Of a DNA stretch of 64,000 bases, positions 5,525 to 41,559 are shown one piece after another. Source of the DNA: Streptomyces virus Karimac. Taxonomy: Duplodnaviria; Heunggongvirae; Uroviricota; Caudoviricetes. Below the pieces are notes generated by a model, which saw only the letters and a program-made list of their open reading frames with translations, was not told where the DNA came from and ran no database searches. The translations under genes were made by a program, and so were the position numbers. How positions within the stretch are numbered: the first letter of the stretch is position 1; each line of letters starts with the position of its first letter. Where the stretch lies: IMG/VR virus record IMGVR_UViG_2974575442_000001, one strand, 5' to 3'.

Positions 5525-6735
5525 TCCTTTCGAAGAAAACCCGGCGCAAGAGAAGCCAATTCAACCAGGCATCCTGATTGATGGAAGCTTCTCTTGTATG
5601 ACCTGTGGTGAAGTAGTTGATGAAGCGGAGTATTTGCCAGTCGATAAGATTCTCGGCTGGCTCTGCTCAGAAGGGCATAAGTCCTTGATTGAGAACTTTA
5701 ATCTAGGAGCGTAATGACAGAGCTAAACGAAATCAAGAGAGACGGCGGAAAGGCTCAAAAGAATTCCGGCCGTGGAAAGATTCAAAAGGGTGACGCGAAG
5801 CTAGGTCCATTCTGTTATGACATCAAGGAGTACGCTAATTCCTTTAGTGTCTCTAAGGATGTCTGGGGGAAGGTTTGCACAGATGCCTTCCGATCTGGTA
5901 GGATGGTACCGGCACTCAAGCTAGTTCTAGGAGCTGGCGACGAAAAGACCCGAGTGTGGGTTATTGGAGACAACATGTTCCATGAGATGCTAGAAGCCTG
6001 GGAGGAAAAATATGGTGAATCTGACGAGGATTGAGTTCATCCGTCGTGATAATGGCGGCTGGATGGTTTATGAGAAGTTTGAAGATGGAGCCGAACAGGG
6101 TGGCCCGGTGGGTTACGAAGAGGCTCGTCAGCTTCTTGCAGCCGCTTTTGGCGAAGATGAACATGGACCATTCACAATGGACCTAGTAAAGGAATCAAAT
6201 GAAGCTAATAATCACGGTTCCTGAGCAAGTATTCGAATACGACATTCCAGATTATGTAGCTGAGCGCTATCGAGAAATGATGGCCGAACCCCATGAAGAA
6301 TGGGAAGAGACAGACTTCTGGGATACTTGGTCATCTGATACGTGGCCAGAGACATATTTGGAGGTAGTTGATGACGACTGAGGAAAATCCTCTAGTCCTC
6401 ATTTCAAGAATTTCAGAGTTCCAAGAAGTTCATGAATTCATGGACGACGAAGATCTTGACAGAGCGCTTCACTATGTGATCAAGTTGATGATGAAGCCGG
6501 ACGTAAAAAACCCGGTGGCAGCACAGCAGCTCATCATTCAGCTACAAGCATATGCAGCTAAGTTCGCCATGATGGCCACGATCTATTCAACAATCAAGAA
6601 GGATCGTGGCGGAACAACAAATGGAATGAAGAAGAACATCTACTACACAGCGGCAGCCGAACTAGACAAGGTTGTCCAGTCCTTGAAGTATTCATTCAAG
6701 ACTCAAGTATGATACAATGATATTCGCGAAGAGAA

Positions 6736-7518
6736 ATGGATACTATGTCTACAGGACTAATTAAAACAGTACGGCTAGGAAAGAAGCTGTCTTTCGACAC
6801 TAAGAAGTTTCTTTCTATCGTTGAGCAGGCTTATGTCAACTCACGGCCGAAGAGTAAGTATTCCAAGAAGGTTTCCTTTTCTCCATCTTCTGTAGGCTAT
6901 GGTGCCGGTACTTGTCCAAGGTATTGGTACCTAGCCTTTACAGGTGGAGAATTTGAGAACACCTTCGACGGACTAAGTGTCGCCAATATGGCTAATGGTA
7001 CAGCAGCTCATGATCGAATCGAAAAGCTATTTGCTGATGCTGGTGTACTAGAAGAAGCAGAGCGTGAAATCACACATCAGAATCCCCCAATCAGGGGATT
7101 TGTTGATGTTATCGTGAACTTTGAAGGAAAGCGTGTGGTTGGTGAGTTCAAGACAACTCGCCAGGAATCTTACGTTCATCGTGAGTCAACTGGAACAGCC
7201 ATCGATTACCACAAGGTTCAGGTCCTTATTTATATGCGTGTCCTCGGTCTAGACGAGGGATTTGTTCTTTACGAGAACAAGAACACGCAGGAACTCTTCC
7301 TTGTCCCTGTCATCATGGATGAGACGAATTCAGAATATACGGACTACATCTTCAACTGGATGAACGAAGTTCGAAAGCTGTGGGAAGAAGACAAGCTTCC
7401 GACACGACCATTCAGTCAGAAGAATAAGGCATGCAAGTCATGCGCGCTATTCAATCTGTGTTGGAACGAATCTCCAGAGGGCGACATTACTAAAGCACCA
7501 TTGGAGGTGAAGAAGTAA
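6736..7518 (+). CDS. Cas4-like PD-(D/E)XK exonuclease with Fe-S cysteines
   Basis: N-terminal Cys (GTCPRYWYL); nuclease core VDVIVNFE...GEFKT; C-terminal CKSCALFNLC cysteine cluster. Confidence 0.6.
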   Translation: MDTMSTGLIKTVRLGKKLSFDTKKFLSIVEQAYVNSRPKSKYSKKVSFSPSSVGYGAGTCPRYWYLAFTGGEFENTFDGLSVANMANGTAAHDRIEKLFADAGVLEEAEREITHQNPPIRGFVDVIVNFEGKRVVGEFKTTRQESYVHRESTGTAIDYHKVQVLIYMRVLGLDEGFVLYENKNTQELFLVPVIMDETNSEYTDYIFNWMNEVRKLWEEDKLPTRPFSQKNKACKSCALFNLCWNESPEGDITKAPLEVKK

Positions 7519-7828: not shown

Positions 7829-8356
7829 ATGGGTATCGACTGCTCAACTAAGTCTATTGCATTCACAATCTTCGACGGAGAGAACTTCTACAGATGTGGA
7901 GAGGTTAACTTCACAGGTTCAACAGTTTTTGAGAGAACTTATGACGCTCACGTAAAGACTTTAGCACTATTCGAAGAGTTCACTCCTGACTTTGTGGCAA
8001 TCGAAGCGGCGATTATGGTTCGAAGCACATCAGTAGCTATCAAGATGGCTTATGTGTTTGGTGCAGTAATCGCAGCTTTGCTCAAGAATGGAGCGACAGT
8101 AATTGAAGTTCCTCCTATGAGCTGGCAGTCATTTATTGGAAACAAGATTTTGACTAAGGCTGAGAAGGATGCGATTAAGGCTGAGTTCCCTGGGAAGTCT
8201 GCAAGTTGGTATCAGAATAAGGGCAGACAGATCAGGAAGCAGCGAACCATCACCTTTGCCAAGGATAAATTTGGCATTGAGCTGACAAGCGATAACGTGG
8301 CTGACTCACTGGGAATTGGCTGGTGGGCAGTACAGAACAAAACTAGAAGGAGCTAA
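7829..8356 (+). CDS. RuvC-like Holliday junction resolvase
   Basis: N-terminal MGIDCSTKS catalytic-Asp motif typical of RuvC/A22-type resolvases; alternative upstream start at 7781. Confidence 0.55.
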   Translation: MGIDCSTKSIAFTIFDGENFYRCGEVNFTGSTVFERTYDAHVKTLALFEEFTPDFVAIEAAIMVRSTSVAIKMAYVFGAVIAALLKNGATVIEVPPMSWQSFIGNKILTKAEKDAIKAEFPGKSASWYQNKGRQIRKQRTITFAKDKFGIELTSDNVADSLGIGWWAVQNKTRRS

Positions 8357-13663: not shown

Positions 13664-14284
13664 ATGTCTACTACTACAGCAATGTTGCTCATCGTTGATC
13701 GATCTGGTAGCATGTCTAGTATCCAGATGGAAGCTGAGCAAGCGCTGAATGACTTCCTGACTAAGCAGAAGGCTGTTGACGGCCGATGTGGAGTCAAGGT
13801 TGTTCAGTTTGATGGTGAAGTAGAAGATCTATTTGGTCCAGTTGCTCTAGCTCAAGCTCCTGAGATTAAGATCGTTCCTCGTGGAATGACTGCACTACTT
13901 GACGCAATCGGCAAGTCTGTGACAGAATTCAGGGAGACGATGGATCATATGCCGGTGGATAAGCGACTCGTCGTTATTCTCACCGATGGTCTTGAGAATG
14001 TGTCTCAGGAGTGGAAGCTAGATGCAGTTAATAAGCTGATTAGCGAGTCAAGGGAGCTGGGCTACGAGTTCATCTTCCTTGCCGCTAACCAGGATGCAAT
14101 TGCAACTGGCGCTCAGATGGGTATTCCAACAGCTTCAAGTTTGACCTTTGCGGCTAGTCCGGCTGGTGTACGTGGCATGGGAATGACTATGGACATGTAC
14201 GTCACCAACTATCGTGAAGGTAAGGCAGCAGAATTCACTGATCAGGATCGGGCCACAGCGTCCGGTTTGACAGACGAAGACTGA
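13664..14284 (+). CDS. von Willebrand factor A domain protein
   Basis: MIDAS motif DRSGSMS near N-terminus; vWA-like length. Confidence 0.55.
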   Translation: MSTTTAMLLIVDRSGSMSSIQMEAEQALNDFLTKQKAVDGRCGVKVVQFDGEVEDLFGPVALAQAPEIKIVPRGMTALLDAIGKSVTEFRETMDHMPVDKRLVVILTDGLENVSQEWKLDAVNKLISESRELGYEFIFLAANQDAIATGAQMGIPTASSLTFAASPAGVRGMGMTMDMYVTNYREGKAAEFTDQDRATASGLTDED

Positions 14285-14304
14285 TCTGTTAGAGTAGTAA
14301 ATGT

Positions 14305-14368
14305 GGGTCGAAGGGCTCGGTCGGTTATCTTACATTGGAAATAGAAAGGTCATTAAATTGGCCACCCG
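14305..14368 (+). ncRNA. Y-RNA-like element (degenerate copy), 5' motif GGGTCGAAGGG...TCGGTTATCTTACA
   Basis: Aligns closely with the 22370 locus (GGGCCGAATGGAATCGGTTATCTTACAC...); terminal helix not convincingly found. Confidence 0.3.
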
Positions 14369-14392
14369 ACTCCCAACACTTATCCACATAAT

Positions 14393-14466
14393 GCGGATGT
14401 AGTTTAATGGTAAAACCCCTGCCTTCCAAGCAGACGACGGGAGTTCGATTCTCCTCATCCGCTCCA
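14393..14466 (+). tRNA. tRNA-Gly (anticodon TCC)
   Basis: Cloverleaf by hand: acceptor gcggatg/catccgc, T-arm gggagttcgattctcc, anticodon loop ctTCCaa, CCA encoded. Confidence 0.8.
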
Positions 14467-15477: not shown

Positions 15478-15645
15478 ATGGCACTCGTTGGAAACAGCAA
15501 TACTTGTTGGTTTCAGCGGTGTGGCAACAAGCCAATCCATCGAATTAGGTACTACAACAAAACTGTAATGGTTTGCAACAAGCACAAGAATCTCGATGGT
15601 GCAGGCTGTGCGCCTAGTCGCAGAAGGCCAAAAGGTTCAGCTTGA
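15478..15645 (+). CDS. small Cys-rich protein (55 aa)
   Basis: ATG directly after the previous stop; CxxxxC...C..H pattern; below ORF-track size cutoff. Confidence 0.25.
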   Translation: MALVGNSNTCWFQRCGNKPIHRIRYYNKTVMVCNKHKNLDGAGCAPSRRRPKGSA

Positions 15646-15701
15646 CAGACGCTACAGGGTCTGTTAGTATTAAGTACAACGCAGCAAGCAGTTGCTGCTA
15701 T

Positions 15702-15773
15702 CTGGCACGGGGAAGATGGTAATCCATTCGCTTTGGAAGCGTAAGAAACCCGGTTCGATTCCGGGGTGCCAGA
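15702..15773 (+). tRNA. tRNA, probable Pro (anticodon TGG), atypical
   Basis: Acceptor ctggcac/gtgccag, T-arm cccggttcgattccggg, anticodon loop ttTGGaa with one T-T mismatch in stem. Confidence 0.45.
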
Positions 15774-15796
15774 CTCGGACTGCAAAAGCAGTCTAT

Positions 15797-15871
15797 CGGG
15801 ATGTAGCTCAGCTTGGTCAGAGCGCGCCGTTTGGGGCGGTGAAGTCGCAGGTTCGAATCCTGTCATCCCGA
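15797..15871 (+). tRNA. tRNA-Pro (anticodon TGG)
   Basis: Acceptor cgggatg/catcccg, D stem gctc/gagc, anticodon loop ttTGGgg (G37), T-arm gcaggttcgaatcctgt. Confidence 0.7.
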
Positions 15872-15877
15872 CAATTT

Positions 15878-15943
15878 GGGTCGAATGGGTAACGGTTATC
15901 ACTCAATGGATAATAGGTTCGATTCCTATCGCTGGGTTCGCCC
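15878..15943 (+). ncRNA. Y-RNA-like ncRNA (best-supported copy)
   Basis: 5' GGGTCGAATGGGTAACGGTTATCACTCAATGG resembles human Y1/Y4 5' regions (GGTCCGA[AT]GGTAGTG[AG]GTTATC...); terminal helix GGG[T]CGAA/TTCGCCC with a single bulged nucleotide; internal T-arm-like hairpin taggttcgattccta. Confidence 0.55.
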
Positions 15944-16034
15944 GGTAGATACAAGTCATCTCAGATTGTGTGTGGTAGGATGACATTAAGGACTACACAC
16001 TCTCCGTTCCCGCCTTATACCTAAAGGACTTATT

Positions 16035-16556
16035 ATGACGGTACTTCTTAGGACTATCCACGGAAGCCATCTGTATGGCCTCGCTCACGCAAACAGCGAT
16101 AAGGACATTTACGAAGTAATTGCAACCAATCGCACGAAGCGTAAGCGAAACATTAAGCAAACCATTGCGAATGGTGTTGACAAGACGACGGTAGATATGT
16201 CAACATTTATGAAGATGGTTGATGATTGCGTACCTCAAGCACTTGAAGCGCTATGGACGCCGGTCGCTGAGATCGATAAGATCCACGAATTCCGGACACA
16301 ATATCGAGTGAATCGCGCCAAGATGAAAGATGTGTACGTACGAACTGCCCTTAACTTCGCTAAGGGTGATGGGGTAAAGCAGAAGAAGCACGCAGTGCGA
16401 TTGCTGTTGAACCTTGGTCACACTTTGGAGTTTGGAAAGTTCAATCCTCGATTGGGTGCAATGGATAAGATCATTATCAATGCATCTGTCGGAGACGCGG
16501 GAAAGTATGATGCCGTGTTCGACGCTCTAATTGATGAGGTCGGCCGGTGGATATAA
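16035..16556 (+). CDS. minimal nucleotidyltransferase (Pol-beta superfamily)
   Basis: HGSHLYGLAHANSDKD matches the hG[GS]x9-13Dh[DE] NTase signature; sits inside the tRNA cluster. Confidence 0.45.
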   Translation: MTVLLRTIHGSHLYGLAHANSDKDIYEVIATNRTKRKRNIKQTIANGVDKTTVDMSTFMKMVDDCVPQALEALWTPVAEIDKIHEFRTQYRVNRAKMKDVYVRTALNFAKGDGVKQKKHAVRLLLNLGHTLEFGKFNPRLGAMDKIIINASVGDAGKYDAVFDALIDEVGRWI

Positions 16557-16565
16557 TCCCACCAC

Positions 16566-16642
16566 TGGGGCGTATACCCTCTGTCTGATAAACAGTTGAA
16601 AGGTTAAGTGGTCACATGTGGGTTCAACTCCCACCGTCCCAA
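16566..16642 (+). tRNA. tRNA-like element, possible Ile (GAT), non-canonical D region
   Basis: Acceptor tggggcg/cgtccca and T-arm gtgggttcaactcccac are good; anticodon hairpin ctgt-ctGATaa-acag; no regular D arm. Confidence 0.35.
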
Positions 16643-22246: not shown

Positions 22247-22320
22247 CTTTTGGGTCGAATGACTATCGGTTATCTGTCTATGAAACAGACTGAAACACGG
22301 TTCGAATCCGTGGATTGCTT
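22247..22320 (+). ncRNA. Y-RNA-like / tRNA-like hybrid element upstream of Ro60 gene
   Basis: 5' TTTTGGGTCGAATGACTATCGGTTATC (Y-RNA motif), then tRNA-like anticodon hairpin (gtct-atGAAac-agac) and perfect T-arm cacggttcgaatccgtg; no pairing acceptor. Confidence 0.4.
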
Positions 22321-22369
22321 TGGCGCTAGGTTTACGGTCGATGTCAACAACTTACCCATACAATTTTAT

Positions 22370-22437
22370 ATCGGGCCGAATGGAATCGGTTATCTTACAC
22401 TGCAAATATAAGGTCGATTCCTACCAACTTGCCCGAT
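22370..22437 (+). ncRNA. Y-RNA-like ncRNA with bulged-C terminal helix
   Basis: 5' ATCGGGC[C]GAA pairs with 3' TTGCCCGAT giving the canonical Y-RNA helix with a bulged C; interior GAATGGAATCGGTTATCTTACAC...aggtcgattcct T-arm-like hairpin; ~30 nt upstream of the gene preceding Ro60. Confidence 0.55.
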
Positions 22438-22837: not shown

Positions 22838-24466
22838 ATGTCCAACGCACTAACTAATGCCGCAAAGGCAACCAACAAGACTTCTCAGTCAATGAAGGCT
22901 AAGGCTGGACAGGTTAAGAACAACGCTGGTGGATTCGTCTTCCAGGTTTCTGATCAGTCTCGTCTTGAGCGCTTCCTGATTCTGGGAACTGATGGAGGAA
23001 CGTATTACGTCTCTGAGGTTAACCACACCCAGAGCAACGTAGAATTCCTCAATGAGTTCATTGCTCGTGACGAAGCCTCTGTACTGAACACAATCGTTGA
23101 TGTATCTGTCAATGGTCGTGCGTACAAGCAGAGTCCAGCCCTGTTCGCTCTAGCCTCTGTCATTGTCAACGGCAAGGATAAGCAGGCGGTCAAGGCTGTA
23201 TTCAACAAGGTCGTAAGGACTGCTACTCACCTCTACGAGGTGGTTAACTACCTTAACGAGCTTGGCGGATGGGGTCGCGCAAAGCGTGAAATCGTAGCTA
23301 GCTGGTTCGATAAGGATGCTGATAAGCTTGCTTATCAGGCAGTCAAGTATCGTTCCCGTAAGTTCGGTGGAAACACCTGGACGCTGCGAGACGTAATGCG
23401 AAAGGCTCACCCACAGAACGTTAACACGTCTGTTGCTGATTTTGTCCTAGGCAAGGAGCACGCGGCTGTAGATGACCTTCGGGTTATTGAGGGCTTCAAG
23501 CTTATGCAGAAGGCGGAGTCTGTAGAGAGTGTTCACGCAGTTCTGCGGGACTACGAGATGCTTTCTTGGGAGACAATTCCAACACAGTTCCTCACGGATG
23601 CTAGTGTTTGGAAGCGACTCTTCGCAAATGGTCAGCTTCGTGGTCAGGCTGCTGTTCGAAACATCACTCGCCTCGCGCGTATTGGTGCTTTCAAGGACAT
23701 GCAGTTTGCTGCGAGCTTCGCTGGTCAGCTAACGAATGAGGAACTGATTCGTCAGTCTCGACTGCACCCAATTAACTTCCTTAACGCTGCCGTTGTTTAC
23801 GCAGAAGGCCAGGTGGATCGAAAGAACTACTATGGCGGACGCGTAAAGAACTGGGAGACTGAGGCCGTTATTGTCGATGCAATCGATGAGGCGTTCCACA
23901 AGTCATTCAAGACCATTGAGCCAGCCGGTAAGAGGACGATGCTAGCCATCGACTGTTCCGGATCAATGAGTGCTATGGCTATGGGTCTCGACCTAAGCTG
24001 TGCACAGGTTGCTGGTGCTATGGCGATGACCATTGCGCGTACAGAGCCAGCTCACATTCTTCGCGGCTTCTCTAGCGTGGGGTACAACTGGCGTGACAGC
24101 GGTATGACCGAACTCAAGATTACTGGTCGCAGCTCTCTTGCTCAGGCAATGAGTGCAATGCGTGCGGTAAACTGGGGCGGTACAGACTGCTCACTGCCAA
24201 TGACGTGGGCTCTTGAGAACGGTGTGGAAGTTGACACCTTTGTCGTTATCACTGATAACGAGACATGGGCTGGCAAGATTCACCCATTCCAGGCTCTAAA
24301 GAAGTACCGTAAGGACACTGGCATTGATGCCCGACTTGCTGTTCTAGGAGTTGCTTCAACGCCATTTACTATCGCTGACCCAAGTGATAGCGGAATGATG
24401 GACTTCGTTGGCTTCGATAGCAACGCTCCACGTGTTCTGGCCGACTTCTCCGCAGGTCGAATCTGA
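22838..24466 (+). CDS. rsr: Ro60-like protein (TROVE domain plus C-terminal vWA/MIDAS); Rsr orthologue
   Basis: 542 aa; C-terminal MIDAS LAIDCSGSMS...GGTDCSLPM...VVITDNETW as in Ro60 vWA domain; N-terminal region of Ro60-like length and composition; Y-RNA-like genes nearby. Confidence 0.6.
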   Translation: MSNALTNAAKATNKTSQSMKAKAGQVKNNAGGFVFQVSDQSRLERFLILGTDGGTYYVSEVNHTQSNVEFLNEFIARDEASVLNTIVDVSVNGRAYKQSPALFALASVIVNGKDKQAVKAVFNKVVRTATHLYEVVNYLNELGGWGRAKREIVASWFDKDADKLAYQAVKYRSRKFGGNTWTLRDVMRKAHPQNVNTSVADFVLGKEHAAVDDLRVIEGFKLMQKAESVESVHAVLRDYEMLSWETIPTQFLTDASVWKRLFANGQLRGQAAVRNITRLARIGAFKDMQFAASFAGQLTNEELIRQSRLHPINFLNAAVVYAEGQVDRKNYYGGRVKNWETEAVIVDAIDEAFHKSFKTIEPAGKRTMLAIDCSGSMSAMAMGLDLSCAQVAGAMAMTIARTEPAHILRGFSSVGYNWRDSGMTELKITGRSSLAQAMSAMRAVNWGGTDCSLPMTWALENGVEVDTFVVITDNETWAGKIHPFQALKKYRKDTGIDARLAVLGVASTPFTIADPSDSGMMDFVGFDSNAPRVLADFSAGRI

Positions 24467-28354: not shown

Positions 28355-28408
28355 CTTTGAGAATACTCGCGATATTCTCAAATGCATATCAGGTCGCTCC
28401 TGATATGA

Positions 28409-28528
28409 GGAGTGTAGTTTAATTGGCAAAACCGCGAAATGCAATGTCGAAAGGGAAGTGCTGCTACGGCGGGTCTTACCTTAGTAGATATCAGAGTAGC
28501 AGTTGCGGGTTCGAGTCCCGTCACTCCG
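28409..28528 (+). ncRNA. unresolved ~120-nt tRNA-like RNA (acceptor-like stem ggagtg/cactcc plus T arm)
   Basis: T-arm gcgggttcgagtcccgt and terminal 6-bp stem enclose ~107 nt including 8-bp stem gctgctac/gtagcagt; too long for a tRNA and too short for tmRNA. Confidence 0.25.
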
Positions 28529-28668
28529 CTAGCCTGAGATGACGATCCGATGTAGGTCCCCTAGGGCTTGCGCAGGCCCGAAGGGCATTCGGGAAAGGTG
28601 CCTAGCTAGGTCCGTCTACCAATAAGGTGAGAGTTTTTCACGGCTTTTCTCATAATTAAACCGTGTTT

Positions 28669-28741: not shown

Positions 28742-28819
28742 AATGACTTATGGGAGTTGAGAGGCATCACATGCCCGACTGTAATCGGGTGATCGCAGGT
28801 TCGAATCCTGCCCCTATGG
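28742..28819 (+). tRNA. tRNA-like element without pairing acceptor stem
   Basis: Perfect T-arm gcaggttcgaatcctgc; extended hairpin atcac-atg-cccga-ctgtaa-tcggg-gtgat; 3' ccctatg has no 5' partner. Confidence 0.25.
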
Positions 28820-28826
28820 TCAGCAA

Positions 28827-31568: not shown

Positions 31569-32435
31569 ATGGGTTACCTCATTTTCGCGGTGATCTTCAC
31601 CGTAATCACCCTCGGTGGTATTGGCCTCTTCCTCTTCACAAAGGATAAGCTGGCACTAGCCGTGGGAGCTGTTGGTGGCACAGTGCTGATTGCTGGATCA
31701 TTCCTATGGTCCATCACCAGCGTAGATAGCCGTAGCGTTGGTATCCAGACGTCATTTAATCGATACCAGGGAACGCTTAAGAGTGGTTTCCAGCTTACGG
31801 CTCCGTGGTCAGAGCATGAGGACTTTACTACACGAATTCAGTACCTCGACCTTGATGGTGAGAAGTGGGCCGATGGCGCACCGGTTACTTTTGAGGGCGG
31901 CGGTCGTGGTGTTGTCTTTGCTACTCCTCGTTGGAAGATTGACGAGGCTTCTGCTGGTAAGCTTTGGAACAAGTACAAGACTTTCGACAACGTTCGGGAT
32001 CAGCTTGTTCGTTCCTCAGTGAAGGATTCATTCCGAGCTGTGCTTACTGCCTACACTCCGAATGAGGCTCGTGAGAATATTCGCGAGATTACTCGTGAGG
32101 TAGAAGCGGATCTGGCTGCGACCCTTACTGATGATGGTATCAAGATCGACTCCATCAGCATTAAGGACATCAAGCTTGACGACCGTACACAGGCTTCTCT
32201 TGACAAGATCGTCCAGGCTAACAACGACATTGAGCGCGCTAAGGCTGAGCAGGAGCGTGCCAAGATCGATGCCGAGACGCTTAAGATCAAGGAGAAGGCT
32301 GGTAACCTTACTCAGGGTGGTCTGGCCGATAAGTGCCTGACTGTCATGGATAAGTGGGATGTCAAGAAGAACGGTCCGGCACCTGCTGCGGGCTTCTGCA
32401 ATGGGCTGCTTCCGTTCACTGTCACCAACAAGTAA
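31569..32435 (+). CDS. SPFH/band-7 (prohibitin/stomatin-like) membrane protein
   Basis: N-terminal TM helices then SPFH-like core and coiled-coil C-terminus (AKAEQERAKIDAETLKIKE). Confidence 0.55.
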   Translation: MGYLIFAVIFTVITLGGIGLFLFTKDKLALAVGAVGGTVLIAGSFLWSITSVDSRSVGIQTSFNRYQGTLKSGFQLTAPWSEHEDFTTRIQYLDLDGEKWADGAPVTFEGGGRGVVFATPRWKIDEASAGKLWNKYKTFDNVRDQLVRSSVKDSFRAVLTAYTPNEARENIREITREVEADLAATLTDDGIKIDSISIKDIKLDDRTQASLDKIVQANNDIERAKAEQERAKIDAETLKIKEKAGNLTQGGLADKCLTVMDKWDVKKNGPAPAAGFCNGLLPFTVTNK

Positions 32436-36839: not shown

Positions 36840-36911
36840 GCATGTAAGCCAGGGATAAGCTAGGCGGGCCTGTAAAGCCCTACCTCGTTGGTTCGAATCC
36901 AACTACATGCA
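36840..36911 (+). tRNA. class-I tRNA with Tyr anticodon GTA (short variable arm)
   Basis: Perfect acceptor gcatgta/tacatgc, loop ctGTAaa on 4-bp stem, T-arm gttggttcgaatccaac. Confidence 0.45.
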
Positions 36912-41464: not shown

Positions 41465-41534
41465 TGTCACATAGCTTAATGGGCAAAGCAGTCTTAGGCC
41501 AAAGACGATGTTGGTTCGAGTCCAACTGTGACAG
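41465..41534 (+). tRNA. tRNA with non-canonical (6- or 8-nt) anticodon loop
   Basis: Perfect acceptor tgtcaca/tgtgaca and T-arm gttggttcgagtccaac; anticodon hairpin gtctt-aggcca-aagac. Confidence 0.4.
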
Positions 41535-41559
41535 CAATATCAATTAGACTTCATAATCT

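What the first reader, a model, noticed from the sequence alone, without database searches (positions are those of the whole stretch)
15878..15943. Best-supported extra Y-RNA copy between tRNA-Pro and the nucleotidyltransferase gene
This 66-nt segment has the same 5' motif (GGGTCGAATGGGTAACGGTTATCACTCAATGG). Its ends pair as GGG[T]CGAA / TTCGCCC with one bulged nucleotide. It encloses a hairpin (ttatc/gataa) and a T-arm-like hairpin (taggttcgattccta). It sits 7 kb from the Ro60 gene, so Y-RNA paralogues are dispersed through the tRNA clusters.
Basis: seen in the sequence. Interest (0 to 1): 0.7.

Follow-up and report, generated by a model that had tools for sequence, protein, structure and literature searches.

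The report
Phage tRNA-like Y RNA, 145 nt

Summary
The window is Streptomyces phage Karimac. The motif, the ttatc/gataa hairpin and the T-arm hairpin are real. The proposed 66-nt molecule is not. Its closing helix GGG[T]CGAA/TTCGCCC uses the loop and 3' strand of a hypervariable hairpin and is not kept in related phages.

Sixteen distinct orthologues from BE-cluster phages support a ~145-nt RNA at 15878-16022:
- a terminal Ro-type bulged helix, GGGU[C]GA with AUACCU;
- a second closing helix;
- a UUAUC hairpin;
- a perfect T arm;
- a 7-bp acceptor-stem mimic, with double changes at 5 of its 7 pairs;
- an enlarged D-like arm;
- an extra helix between the D loop and the 3' linker.

This is the circularly permuted tRNA layout of YrlA. 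Rfam's YrlA model does not detect it. Models built here link it to environmental phage RNAs that Rfam scores as sub-threshold YrlA, and to the YrlA locus of mycobacteriophage Bxz1.

Three shorter paralogues share the two closing helices: 14305-14385, 22252-22357 and 22373-22434.

The RNA follows two tRNA-Pro genes behind a conserved promoter-like site. It ends 12 nt before an RlaP-type nucleotidyltransferase gene and lies 7 kb upstream of Ro60.

Verdict: a real feature and a new, divergent member of a known kind. Ro60 binding and function are inferred, not shown.

The parts
15642..15670 (+). Promoter-like site TTGACA-17-TAGTAT with TG, upstream of the tRNA-Pro pair and the Y RNA
   Evidence: A motif of the form TTGACA-N11-GTCTG(Y)TA(R)(K)AT lies 215-352 nt upstream of the RNA start in 16 of 17 orthologous loci; Riptide has a more divergent TTGAC site in the same place. 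Function is inferred.
15702..15774 (+). tRNA-Pro(tgg), first copy, same transcription unit
15797..15872 (+). tRNA-Pro(tgg), second copy. The discriminator is at 15871 and 6 nt (CAAUUU) separate it from the Y RNA.
   Evidence: CCA is not encoded, so 3' processing of this tRNA would set the Y RNA 5' end (inferred).
15878..16022 (+). Full YrlA-class Y RNA (145 nt), unannotated in the GenBank record
   Evidence: The whole spacer is alignable in 83 phage records. Across 16 orthologues 95.2% of cells pair, against 36-51% in slid controls, and 10 pairs show double changes. Model R1 scores it 153 bits full length. There is no annotation in MH590599.
15878..15884 (+). P0 5' strand GGGU[C]GA. It overlaps the Ro/Rsr motif GNCGAAN0-1G (GUCGAAUG, 15880-15887).
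   Evidence: Invariant in 16 orthologues. The motif is defined in PMC4201824 section 6. It pairs with 16017-16022 (helix 1, 92.7% paired). U-A changes to C-G at the fourth pair across family members.
15887..15895 (+). P1 5' strand GGGU[A]ACGG
   Evidence: RNAalifold pairs it with 16004-16011. G-C changes to A-U at the second pair, and 97.7% of cells pair. All 8 pairs covary across the wider family.
15896..15912 (+). YUAY (UUAU) followed by the V hairpin UAUC...GAUA
   Evidence: helix 3, invariant. YUAY starting the V loop is a YrlA feature (PMC4201824, Fig. 2 legend).
15913..15929 (+). T arm: 5-bp stem AUAGG/CCUAU with the 7-nt loop UUCGAUU
   Evidence: Aligns to positions 47-63 of the Rfam tRNA model. 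A-U changes to C-G at the closing pair (helix 4).
15930..15947 (+). Acceptor-stem mimic (AS): CGCUGGG-UUCG-CCCGGUA. The stem is 7 bp in most orthologues.
   Evidence: The hairpin is kept in all 16 orthologues despite different sequences. Five of its 7 pairs show double changes (helix 5).
15955..15984 (+). D-like arm: 7-bp stem GUCAUCU/GGAUGAC with a 16-nt loop CAGAUUGUGUGUGGUA
   Evidence: U-A changes to C-G with a U-G intermediate (helix 6). It keeps AG...GGUA of the canonical GUAGCUCAGUGGCAGAGC seen in relatives. It is enlarged enough that Rfam YrlA fails.
15969..15999 (+). Extra helix: D-loop UGU and GUAG (15969-15971, 15975-15978) with linker CUACACA (15993-15999). It is either a pseudoknot or an alternative fold.
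   Evidence: Two pairs show independent double changes, U-A to C-G (helices 7-8). The single-sequence MFE prefers it. Its role is unexplained.
16004..16011 (+). P1 3' strand CCGUUCCC
16017..16022 (+). P0 3' strand AUACCU (UUACCU or UUAUCC in the Samistivirus group), 4 nt before the rlaP ribosome-binding site AAAGGA
   Evidence: Daubenski's ACCU-to-AUCC change keeps the pairing.
16035..16556 (+). Downstream gene gp109, a small Pol-beta nucleotidyltransferase of the RlaP family
   Evidence: Pfam PF10127 RlaP, 24.3 bits against a cut-off of 23, so marginal. The family is described in PMC7824862. No terminator-like site lies between the RNA and the gene.
14305..14385 (+). Paralogue A (81 nt, short form) at a promoter-like site and 7 nt before tRNA-Gly
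   Evidence: R2 scores it 22.6 bits, E 0.008, full length, and it was not in the training set. Promoter-like site at 14267-14295. Orthologues exist in Yaboi and StarPlatinum.
22252..22357 (+). Paralogue C (106 nt; P0, P1, V, T arm, AS-like hairpin, no D arm), 5 nt after tRNA-Asp
   Evidence: R1 scores it 22.2 bits, E 0.001, full length. Orthologues in Bmoc and EGole have compensated T arms.
22373..22434 (+). Paralogue D (62 nt; P0 GGGC[C]GA/UUGCCC and P1 only)
   Evidence: R1 scores it 13.3 bits, E 0.2, full length. LukeCage has an orthologue.
22838..24466 (+). Ro60 orthologue gp130, the presumed protein partner
   Evidence: Pfam TROVE 1.5e-34 and vWA_Ro60 2e-59. Annotated as Ro-like RNA binding protein.

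Best explanation
Positions 15878-16022 encode a ~145-nt noncoding RNA of the YrlA class, that is, a bacterial or phage Y RNA with a circularly permuted tRNA-like domain.

Shown here:
- Its ends form two stacked closing helices. The outer one carries the Ro-binding signature GNCGAA in a bulged helix, GGGU[C]GA/(U)UACCU.
- The interior folds into a V hairpin, a canonical T arm, a 7-bp closed acceptor-stem mimic directly abutting the T stem, and an enlarged D-like arm.
- The fold is maintained by compensatory changes across BE-cluster Streptomyces phages.
- The RNA is homologous to RNAs that Rfam scores as YrlA and to the mycobacteriophage Bxz1 YrlA locus.

Inferred:
- It is transcribed with the two upstream tRNA-Pro genes from the promoter-like site at 15642-15670.
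- Its 5' end is set by 3' processing of tRNA-Pro.
- It is bound through the closing helix by the phage Ro60 protein gp130.
- Its tRNA-like module recruits or decoys a tRNA-recognising factor, so the Ro60 particle acts in quality control or repair of tRNA and other structured RNA during infection.

The three shorter paralogues share the Ro module and would compete for, gate or diversify the same protein.
For: Conservation:
- The whole 165-nt spacer aligns in 83 Streptomyces phage records at 76-100% identity.

Structure:
- RNAalifold recovers P1, V, T, AS and D.
- For my full model 95.2% of cells pair, against 36-51% in slid controls. Ten pairs show double changes, five of them in AS.
- The AS hairpin is re-created by at least five different sequences.

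Defining YrlA motifs are present: GNCGAAN0-1G, YUAY, and the order T, AS, D (PMC4201824 section 6).

Homology:
- R1, built only from orthologues, finds paralogues C and D full length. It also finds four RNAs in phage Stigma and tandem RNAs in environmental phage contigs.
- Rfam YrlA RF02553 hits largely the same intervals at 24-43 bits, mostly over the full model 1-114.
- The family model R2 hits the Bxz1 YrlA locus at 45 bits, E 6e-8. That sequence was not in the training set, and Rfam YrlA hits the same locus.
- Family-wide, 90% of cells pair and 26 of 37 pairs show double changes (this alignment is fitted to the model).

Context:
- Same strand as an intact Ro60 gene.
- A conserved promoter-like site lies upstream and no terminator-like site lies before rlaP.
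Against: - There is no expression, end-mapping or Ro60-binding data for any BE-phage RNA.
- Rfam's curated YrlA model gives no hit at E<=10, even in a 162-nt search.
- The RNA lies 7 kb from Ro60, while published YrlAs are nearly all within 4 kb (PMC4201824).
- The D arm is atypical. Its loop can instead pair with the 3' linker, which would conflict with a tRNA-like D/T-loop contact.
- Folding energy is not better than shuffles, z = -0.44.
- The P0 3' strand lies next to the rlaP ribosome-binding site, so part of its conservation could be translational.
- The orthologues fall into only two or three clades, so the double changes in P1, T, D and the extra helix are few independent events.
Confidence: 0.75

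Rival explanations
1. One reading: a stand-alone 66-nt mini Y RNA (15878-15943) closed by GGG[T]CGAA/TTCGCCC.
For: The helix can form in Karimac and is the single-sequence MFE for the 66-mer. Paralogue D really is a ~62-nt stem-loop form.
Against: In orthologues the proposed 3' strand is not conserved: 66% of cells pair and three pairs are unpaired in half the sequences. TTCGCCC belongs to the covarying AS hairpin. Conservation and covariation continue for 80 more nt. The 66-mer folds worse than shuffles on average, z = +0.70.
Confidence: 0.04
2. A cis-acting 5' leader of the rlaP nucleotidyltransferase mRNA. The tRNA-like fold, with or without bound Ro60 or RlaP, controls translation or stability of rlaP rather than acting as a free RNA. 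This could coexist with the Y RNA role.
For: The RNA is immediately upstream of the nucleotidyltransferase gene in every listed row but two (where the match stops just short of the gene) and in all 18 orthologous loci inspected. The P0 3' strand ends 4 nt before the AAAGGA ribosome-binding site and 12 nt before the ATG. No terminator-like site lies between them. The unusual D-loop/linker helix occurs in the lineage where the RNA abuts rlaP, while Stigma, which lacks an rlaP homologue in the fetched region, has a canonical D arm.
Against: Paralogues with the same closing helices sit in front of tRNA-Gly or other genes. Stigma keeps YrlA-type RNAs without rlaP in the region examined. Rhodococcus phage homologues of the nucleotidyltransferase have no upstream RNA. 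The ribosome-binding site is not sequestered in the supported fold.
Confidence: 0.15
3. A decayed tRNA gene or inert inter-tRNA spacer with no function of its own.
For: It lies in a tRNA cluster, has a perfect T arm, and phage tRNA islands carry degenerate tRNA-like elements, for example 16566-16642.
Against: ARAGORN and the Rfam tRNA model find no tRNA here. The element order is permuted (5' stem, V, T, closed acceptor stem, D, 3' stem). Compensatory changes maintain six helices across phages that are only about 76-78% identical over the spacer. The Ro-binding motif recurs in four copies.
Confidence: 0.04

Closest known systems
YrlA (Y RNA-like A) of S. Typhimurium and M. smegmatis; Rfam RF02553; Chen et al. 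2014 (PMC4201824); structure in bioRxiv 10.1101/312249
   Same: GNCGAAN0-1G near the 5' end. YUAY opens the V region. Element order is V, T arm, closed acceptor-stem mimic, D arm. The 5' and 3' ends pair. Length is ~145 nt (M. smegmatis ~147 nt). Same strand as Ro60. The AS is 7 bp, as in M. smegmatis.
   Different: The Rfam model does not score it at all. The D stem is 7 bp rather than 4 and the loop is 16 nt. The linker after the D arm is 19 nt and pairs with the D loop. Both strands of the Ro helix are recognisable. It lies 7 kb from Ro60, directly after a tRNA and directly before an RlaP-type gene.
Mycobacteriophage Y RNAs upstream of Ro (Bxz1/ET08 group; Chen et al. 2014)
   Same: Phage-encoded. 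Several Y-like RNAs per genome: three in Bxz1. They share the signature G(G/C)CGA...CGGUUAYC. One copy has a full tRNA-like domain and the others are short. R2 hits the Bxz1 YrlA locus at 45 bits.
   Different: The Bxz1 copies are clustered within 400 nt just upstream of Ro. Here they are spread over 8 kb among tRNA genes. Bxz1 YrlA has a canonical D arm, UAGCUCAUGGUAGAGC.
Metazoan Y RNAs and D. radiodurans Yrn1 (Ro-binding bulged helix GGUCCGA/UUGACC)
   Same: A terminal helix formed by the 5' and 3' ends with a bulged C: GGGU[C]GA/UUACCY. Paralogue D reads GGGC[C]GA/UUGCCC.
   Different: Metazoan Y RNAs have no tRNA-like module. The Yrn1 T and D elements are arranged differently (PMC4201824).
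Thermus phage phiLo Yrl1/Yrl2 (PMC12135203)
   Same: Phage Y-like RNAs found through the CGAA motif near a phage Ro60 and shown to bind it.
   Different: They are described as stem-bulge-stem RNAs next to the Ro60 gene. No tRNA-like domain or tRNA linkage is reported.
Circularly permuted tRNA genes and viral tRNA-like structures
   Same: A T arm stacked on a 7-bp acceptor-type helix. There may be a pseudoknot within the tRNA-like fold.
   Different: No free CCA end and no anticodon arm. It is not detected by tRNA finders.

Membership tests
YrlA-class Y RNA (Chen et al. 2014 definition) | GNCGAAN0-1G motif near the 5' end | tested here: met
   GUCGAAUG at 15880-15887. The GNCGA core is invariant in 16 orthologues; positions 8-9 vary: AAU, AUU or AAA.
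YrlA-class Y RNA (Chen et al. 2014 definition) | Conserved YUAY that opens the V region, followed by a V stem-loop | tested here: met
   UUAU at 15896-15899. The hairpin UAUC/GAUA is invariant.
YrlA-class Y RNA (Chen et al. 2014 definition) | T-arm-like stem-loop with the tRNA T-loop consensus | tested here: met
   15913-15929 aligns to Rfam tRNA positions 47-63. The closing pair covaries.
YrlA-class Y RNA (Chen et al. 2014 definition) | Closed acceptor-stem-like hairpin between the T and D arms | tested here: met
   15930-15947. Five of 7 pairs show double changes.
YrlA-class Y RNA (Chen et al. 2014 definition) | D-arm-like stem-loop with tRNA-like conserved nucleotides | tested here: inconclusive
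   A stem-loop is present and covaries and keeps AG...GGUA. However, the stem is 7 bp and the loop 16 nt, and the loop can pair with the linker.
YrlA-class Y RNA (Chen et al. 2014 definition) | Encoded within about 4 kb of the Ro60 gene on the same strand | tested here: not met
   Same strand, but 6,960 nt upstream. Paralogues C and D meet the criterion.
YrlA-class Y RNA (Chen et al. 2014 definition) | Bound by Ro60/Rsr; modified by TruB and DusA | not testable with these tools
   Needs immunoprecipitation or gel-shift assays and modification mapping.
Rfam RF02553 YrlA | Score at or above the gathering threshold (69 bits) | tested here: not met
   No hit at E<=10 in an 11-kb or a 162-nt search. 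Control: the Bxz1 YrlA locus also fails the threshold, at 32.5 bits.
Rfam RF02553 YrlA | Homology to recognised YrlA sequences through intermediates | tested here: met
   R1 hits coincide with Rfam YrlA hits of 24-43 bits in L023, L028, L048, L058 and L081. R2 hits the Bxz1 YrlA locus at 45 bits.
Y RNA (general) | Long stem formed by the 5' and 3' ends that carries the Ro-binding bulged helix | tested here: met
   P0 and P1 pair in 92.7% and 97.7% of cells among orthologues. In the family alignment 10 of their 14 pairs show double changes.
tRNA | Cloverleaf in canonical order with an anticodon arm; detected by ARAGORN or Rfam RF00005 | tested here: not met
   Only the T arm matches, at 12.3 bits. 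ARAGORN makes no call.
   66% of cells pair and 3 of 7 pairs are unpaired in half the sequences.

The most novel reading that the evidence does not exclude
The RNA is the scaffold of a phage tRNA-end repair particle. Ro60 binds the closing helix while the tRNA-like module engages the RlaP-type nucleotidyltransferase encoded 12 nt downstream.

A variant of this reading: the 7-bp acceptor-stem mimic is opened by RNase P, as in M. smegmatis YrlA, giving ~63-nt and ~82-nt halves, and the new 3' end is completed by that enzyme.

[quoted passage not shown] It would also tie in with the fact that 36 of the 38 phage tRNAs checked here lack an encoded CCA. The lineage-specific helix between the D loop and the linker would then be an adaptation to this partner.
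Probability: 0.12. Interest if true: 0.8.

Novelty: new member of a known kind. Interest (0 to 1): 0.45.

Why it matters
Y RNAs with a tRNA-like domain are known in bacteria and mycobacteriophages, but what that domain binds is still open. This finding contributes three things.

- It adds an unannotated, well-conserved gene family to more than 80 sequenced Streptomyces phages, with up to four paralogues per genome. The curated Rfam model misses them, so the family model built here could improve annotation.
- It shows Y RNAs embedded in tRNA operons, typically about 5 nt after a tRNA. This suggests their ends are made by the tRNA-processing machinery.
- It places the most tRNA-like copy directly in front of an RlaP-family RNA-repair nucleotidyltransferase, in a genome whose tRNAs almost all lack encoded CCA. 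That gives a concrete, testable candidate for the effector recruited by a YrlA-type RNA.

Tried and rejected
- Rfam at gathering and at E<=10 gave nothing at any of the four copies. The positive control on Bxz1 showed the family exists in Rfam but is insensitive for actinophage members.
- Single-sequence folding z-scores were uninformative, ranging from +0.70 to -2.09.
- The supplementary alignment of Chen et al. 2014 is not held, so I could not rebuild their covariance model.
- The search for related loci with the nucleotidyltransferase gave only 6 IMG/VR loci. I used GenBank phage records instead.
- The IMG/VR pattern scan returned mostly chance matches. Only 5 of the 80 listed loci held new relatives once filtered with R1; three more are Karimac-type phages found earlier.
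- I tested whether the Y RNA and rlaP adjacency is general. In Rhodococcus phages it is not.
- A fifth motif match at 31869 lies inside a 288-aa ORF and was rejected. Further weak R2 hits lie on or next to annotated tRNA genes.
- PDB and NCBIfam searches for the nucleotidyltransferase added nothing beyond the marginal Pfam RlaP hit.
- An alternative register of the extra helix, with a 1-nt bulge, gives 8 bp in Karimac. By inspection of the alignment it does not explain the double changes, so I prefer the 3-nt-bulge register counted.

Full report
**Identity of the window.** The region is 100% identical to Streptomyces phage Karimac, MH590599 (window position = record position minus 58,074). It is a ~132-kb siphovirus with about 45 tRNAs and a tmRNA. 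The flagged segment lies in an unannotated 162-nt gap. Upstream is the second of two tRNA-Pro(tgg) genes, ending at 15872. Downstream is gp109, annotated 'nucleotidyltransferase' (16035-16556). gp130 (22838-24466) is a bona fide Ro60 orthologue, with Pfam TROVE at 1.5e-34 and vWA_Ro60 at 2e-59.

**Checking the observation.** The sequence is as quoted.
- The complete 32-nt 'motif' is unique even with three mismatches allowed.
- A shorter core, CGAAKG-N(2-12)-GGTTAT, occurs exactly four times, all on the + strand, at 14305, 15878, 22252 and 22373. Shuffles give 0.15 expected.
- This core is not arbitrary. It combines GNCGAAN0-1G, the conserved 5' motif of bacterial YrlA/YrlB RNAs thought to contact Ro60/Rsr, with the YUAY that opens the V region of YrlA (PMC4201824, section 6).
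- The three Y-like RNAs upstream of Ro in mycobacteriophage Bxz1 carry the same signature, GGCCGA...UCGGUUAYC.
- The two internal hairpins are real.
- The proposed terminal pairing GGG[T]CGAA/TTCGCCC can be drawn in Karimac but does not survive comparison, as shown below.

**Comparative analysis.** The whole spacer, not just 66 nt, aligns in 83 Streptomyces phage records at 76-100% identity. I collected 16 distinct versions from Karimacvirus and Samistivirus phages and two IMG/VR contigs.

The conservation pattern is that of a structured RNA:
- invariant blocks: GGGUCGA, ACGGUUAUC, GGAUA, AGGUUCGAUUCCUA, UGGUAGGAUG, CUCUCCGUUC;
- one hypervariable stretch that nevertheless forms a 6-8-bp hairpin in every sequence. 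Examples are Karimac GCUGGG-UUCG-CCCGGU, Evy CGGUUCC-CCUG-GGAACUG, Samisti12 GGGGUGCU-...-GGCGCUCU and Daubenski CGGUGGGU-...-GCCCGCUG.

**The supported fold.** RNAalifold pairs GGGU[A]ACGG (15887-15895) with CCGUUCCC (16004-16011) and shows a G-C to A-U double change. It also recovers the V hairpin, T arm, variable hairpin and a D-like arm. Adding an outer helix gives the full model:
- P0: 15878-15884 with 16017-16022
- P1: 15887-15895 with 16004-16011
- V hairpin: 15897-15900 with 15909-15912
- T arm: 15913-15929, a 5-bp stem with loop UUCGAUU
- AS: 15930-15947
- D-like arm: 15955-15984

The outer helix reads GGGU[C]GA with UUACCU, or AUACCU in Karimac, where one A-A mismatch replaces the A-U pair. 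On the 16 sequences 95.2% of cells form standard pairs, against 36-51% when partners are slid by 1-3 columns. Ten pairs show changes on both sides, five of them in AS.

The order 5' stem, V, T, closed acceptor-stem mimic, D, 3' stem is exactly the circularly permuted tRNA layout described for YrlA (PMC4201824; bioRxiv 10.1101/312249). The AS abuts the T stem directly and is 7 bp in most orthologues. It would therefore stack like the acceptor/T minihelix of a tRNA.

**An unexplained extra helix.** Part of the 16-nt D loop (UGU and GUAG, 15969-15978) can pair with CUACACA (15993-15999) in the unusually long 19-nt linker after the D arm. Two of these pairs changed U-A to C-G independently, in the LilMartin/Mildred21/Bmoc/Riptide group and in Daubenski. 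With the D stem this has H-type pseudoknot topology. Alternatively it is a competing fold, and the single-sequence MFE prefers it. Relatives with a canonical D arm (GUAGCUCAGUGGCAGAGC) lack both the D-loop insertion and the long linker, so the two insertions appear to have arisen together.

**Is it a YrlA?**
- Rfam contains YrlA (RF02553). It detects the Bxz1 YrlA locus only at 32.5 bits against a gathering score of 69.
- It finds nothing in the target, even in a 162-nt search at E<=10. By that formal test membership is not met.
- A covariance model built only from the orthologues (R1) finds paralogue C (22.2 bits, E 0.001) and paralogue D (13.3 bits, E 0.2), both aligned end to end.
- R1 also finds four RNAs in the more distant Streptomyces phage Stigma, two flanking tRNA-Ile and two upstream of Ro, and tandem RNAs in five environmental phage contigs.
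- Rfam YrlA hits largely the same intervals at 24-43 bits, mostly over the full model 1-114 (E from 4e-6 to 0.6).
- A family-level model built from these (R2) recovers the Bxz1 YrlA locus at 45 bits (E 6e-8). It also recovers paralogue A at exactly 14305-14385 (22.6 bits, E 0.008). Neither sequence was used to build it.
- In the family alignment 90% of cells pair and 26 of 37 pairs show double changes, including all eight pairs of P1. The caveat is that this alignment is fitted to the model.

I conclude that the target is a divergent but homologous member of the YrlA class. Its enlarged D arm and long linker explain why the curated model fails.

**The paralogues.** All four window copies share P0 and P1, with compensatory differences:
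- P0: GGGU/ACCC (C), GGGC/GCCC (D), GGGU/AUCC (A), GGGU/ACCU (target).
- P1: GGGU-ACGG/CCGU-UCCC (target), GACU-UCGG/UCGA-UGUC (C), GGAA-UCGG/UCGA-UUCC (D).

Only the target has the complete T, AS and D module. C has a T arm and an AS-like hairpin. A and D are short, YrlB-like forms.

Corrected coordinates are A 14305-14385, C 22252-22357 and D 22373-22434. The UCGAUUCC in copy D is the 3' strand of P1, not a T arm. C has orthologues in Samistiviruses, with T arms that differ at both sides of the stem. D was not found in the stretches of Bmoc and EGole that I fetched. A has orthologues in Yaboi and StarPlatinum.

**Genomic context and likely biogenesis.**
- A promoter-like site with a perfect -35 hexamer and an extended -10 (TTGACA-17-TAGTAT) lies at 15642-15670. 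A similar motif lies upstream of the tRNA-Pro pair in 16 of 17 orthologous loci, and Riptide has a more divergent site there.
- No terminator-like site separates the RNA from gp109.
- The target starts 6 nt after the tRNA-Pro discriminator. Copy C starts 5 nt after tRNA-Asp. The Stigma YrlA starts 5 nt after tRNA-Ile. Copy A begins at about the predicted start site of a second such promoter and ends 7 nt before tRNA-Gly. End formation by tRNA-processing enzymes is therefore the simplest inference.
- gp109 matches Pfam RlaP only marginally, at 24.3 bits against a cut-off of 23. This is the RNA-ligase-associated Pol-beta nucleotidyltransferase family, predicted to restore RNA 3' nucleotides (PMC7824862).
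- The adjacency looks specific to BE phages. Rhodococcus phage homologues have no upstream RNA, and Stigma has YrlA-type RNAs but no rlaP in the region examined.

**Mechanism.**
- Shown: a conserved, covarying, YrlA-type fold carrying the Ro-binding signature, on the same strand as an intact Ro60 gene.
- Inferred from the family (PMC4201824; 10.1101/312249; PMC12135203): gp130 binds P0 and the GNCGAA motif. The tRNA-like module tethers Ro60 to, or decoys, a tRNA-recognising factor. The short paralogues gate or compete for Ro60.
- Speculative: the partner is the neighbouring RlaP-type enzyme, or the 7-bp AS is opened by RNase P as in M. smegmatis YrlA. That RNA is ~147 nt, is cut into 82-nt and 65-nt halves, and has CA added (PMC4201824, section 8).
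- A cis role as the rlaP leader cannot be excluded and may coexist with the Y RNA role.

**Novelty.** I found no paper in the searchable library that describes Y RNAs in Streptomyces phages. Genome announcements mention only the Ro-like protein. The kind itself, phage YrlA-type Y RNAs, has been known since 2014. I therefore rate this a new and divergent member of a known kind, of moderate interest.

Noticed in passing
window, all 38 Rfam-called tRNA 3' ends (e.g. 15871, 22246): All 38 phage tRNAs checked have a C immediately after the discriminator, but only 2 (ending at 14463 and 36000) encode CCA. Nearly the whole phage tRNA set therefore needs CCA completion.
   Followed up: partly
window 16566-16642: An unannotated tRNA-like element lies in the gap between the RlaP-type gene and the FtsK-like gene. 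It scores 30.3 bits on the Rfam tRNA model (cut-off 29) and is not called by ARAGORN. It has a 7-bp acceptor stem UGGGGCG/CGUCCCA, a T arm, an anticodon-like loop CUGAUAA, no D arm and a long variable region. It is invariant in five Karimacvirus loci. The nucleotidyltransferase gene is thus flanked by tRNA-like RNAs on both sides.
   Followed up: partly
window 14267-14295 and 15642-15670: A recurrent promoter-like motif, TTGACA-N11-(A/G)TCTGTTAG(A/T)(G/A)T, i.e. a perfect -35 with an extended -10. One copy sits so that transcription would start at about the first base of Y-like copy A. A similar motif lies upstream of the tRNA-Pro pair in 16 of 17 related loci.
   Followed up: partly
window 13664-14281: gp101, immediately upstream of Y-like copy A, is a stand-alone von Willebrand A domain protein (Pfam VWA_2, 1.3e-6). 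Ro60 itself ends in a vWA domain.
   Followed up: no
window 36840-36911, 28408-28529, 28748-28821, 41465-41535: Odd tRNA calls. Two Rfam tRNA hits are not called by ARAGORN (35.3 bits; and 33.1 bits spanning 122 nt, which suggests an insertion). ARAGORN also reports two 'tRNA-???' with 2-nt anticodons.
   Followed up: no
L020 (Bxz1) 1548-1612, 1646-1780, 1823-1884: Mycobacteriophage Bxz1 carries three tandem Y-like RNAs upstream of its Ro gene, none annotated in the RefSeq record. The middle one is the YrlA-type copy: Rfam 32.5 bits, R2 45 bits.
   Followed up: partly
L023 (Stigma) 6716-6831, 6921-7053, 8036-8096, 8126-8249: Streptomyces phage Stigma (Gilsonvirus) also has four unannotated Y-like RNAs, two flanking tRNA-Ile and two upstream of Ro. 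Their 5' motif reads GGGUCGG instead of GGGUCGA.
   Followed up: partly
L014-L018 (Samisti12 group), about 80 nt upstream of the RNA: In the Samisti12 group an extra ~77-nt element sits between tRNA-Pro and the Y RNA. It is annotated as tRNA-Gly only in EGole and left unannotated in Samisti12, Jay2Jay, Peebs and Paradiddles.
   Followed up: no
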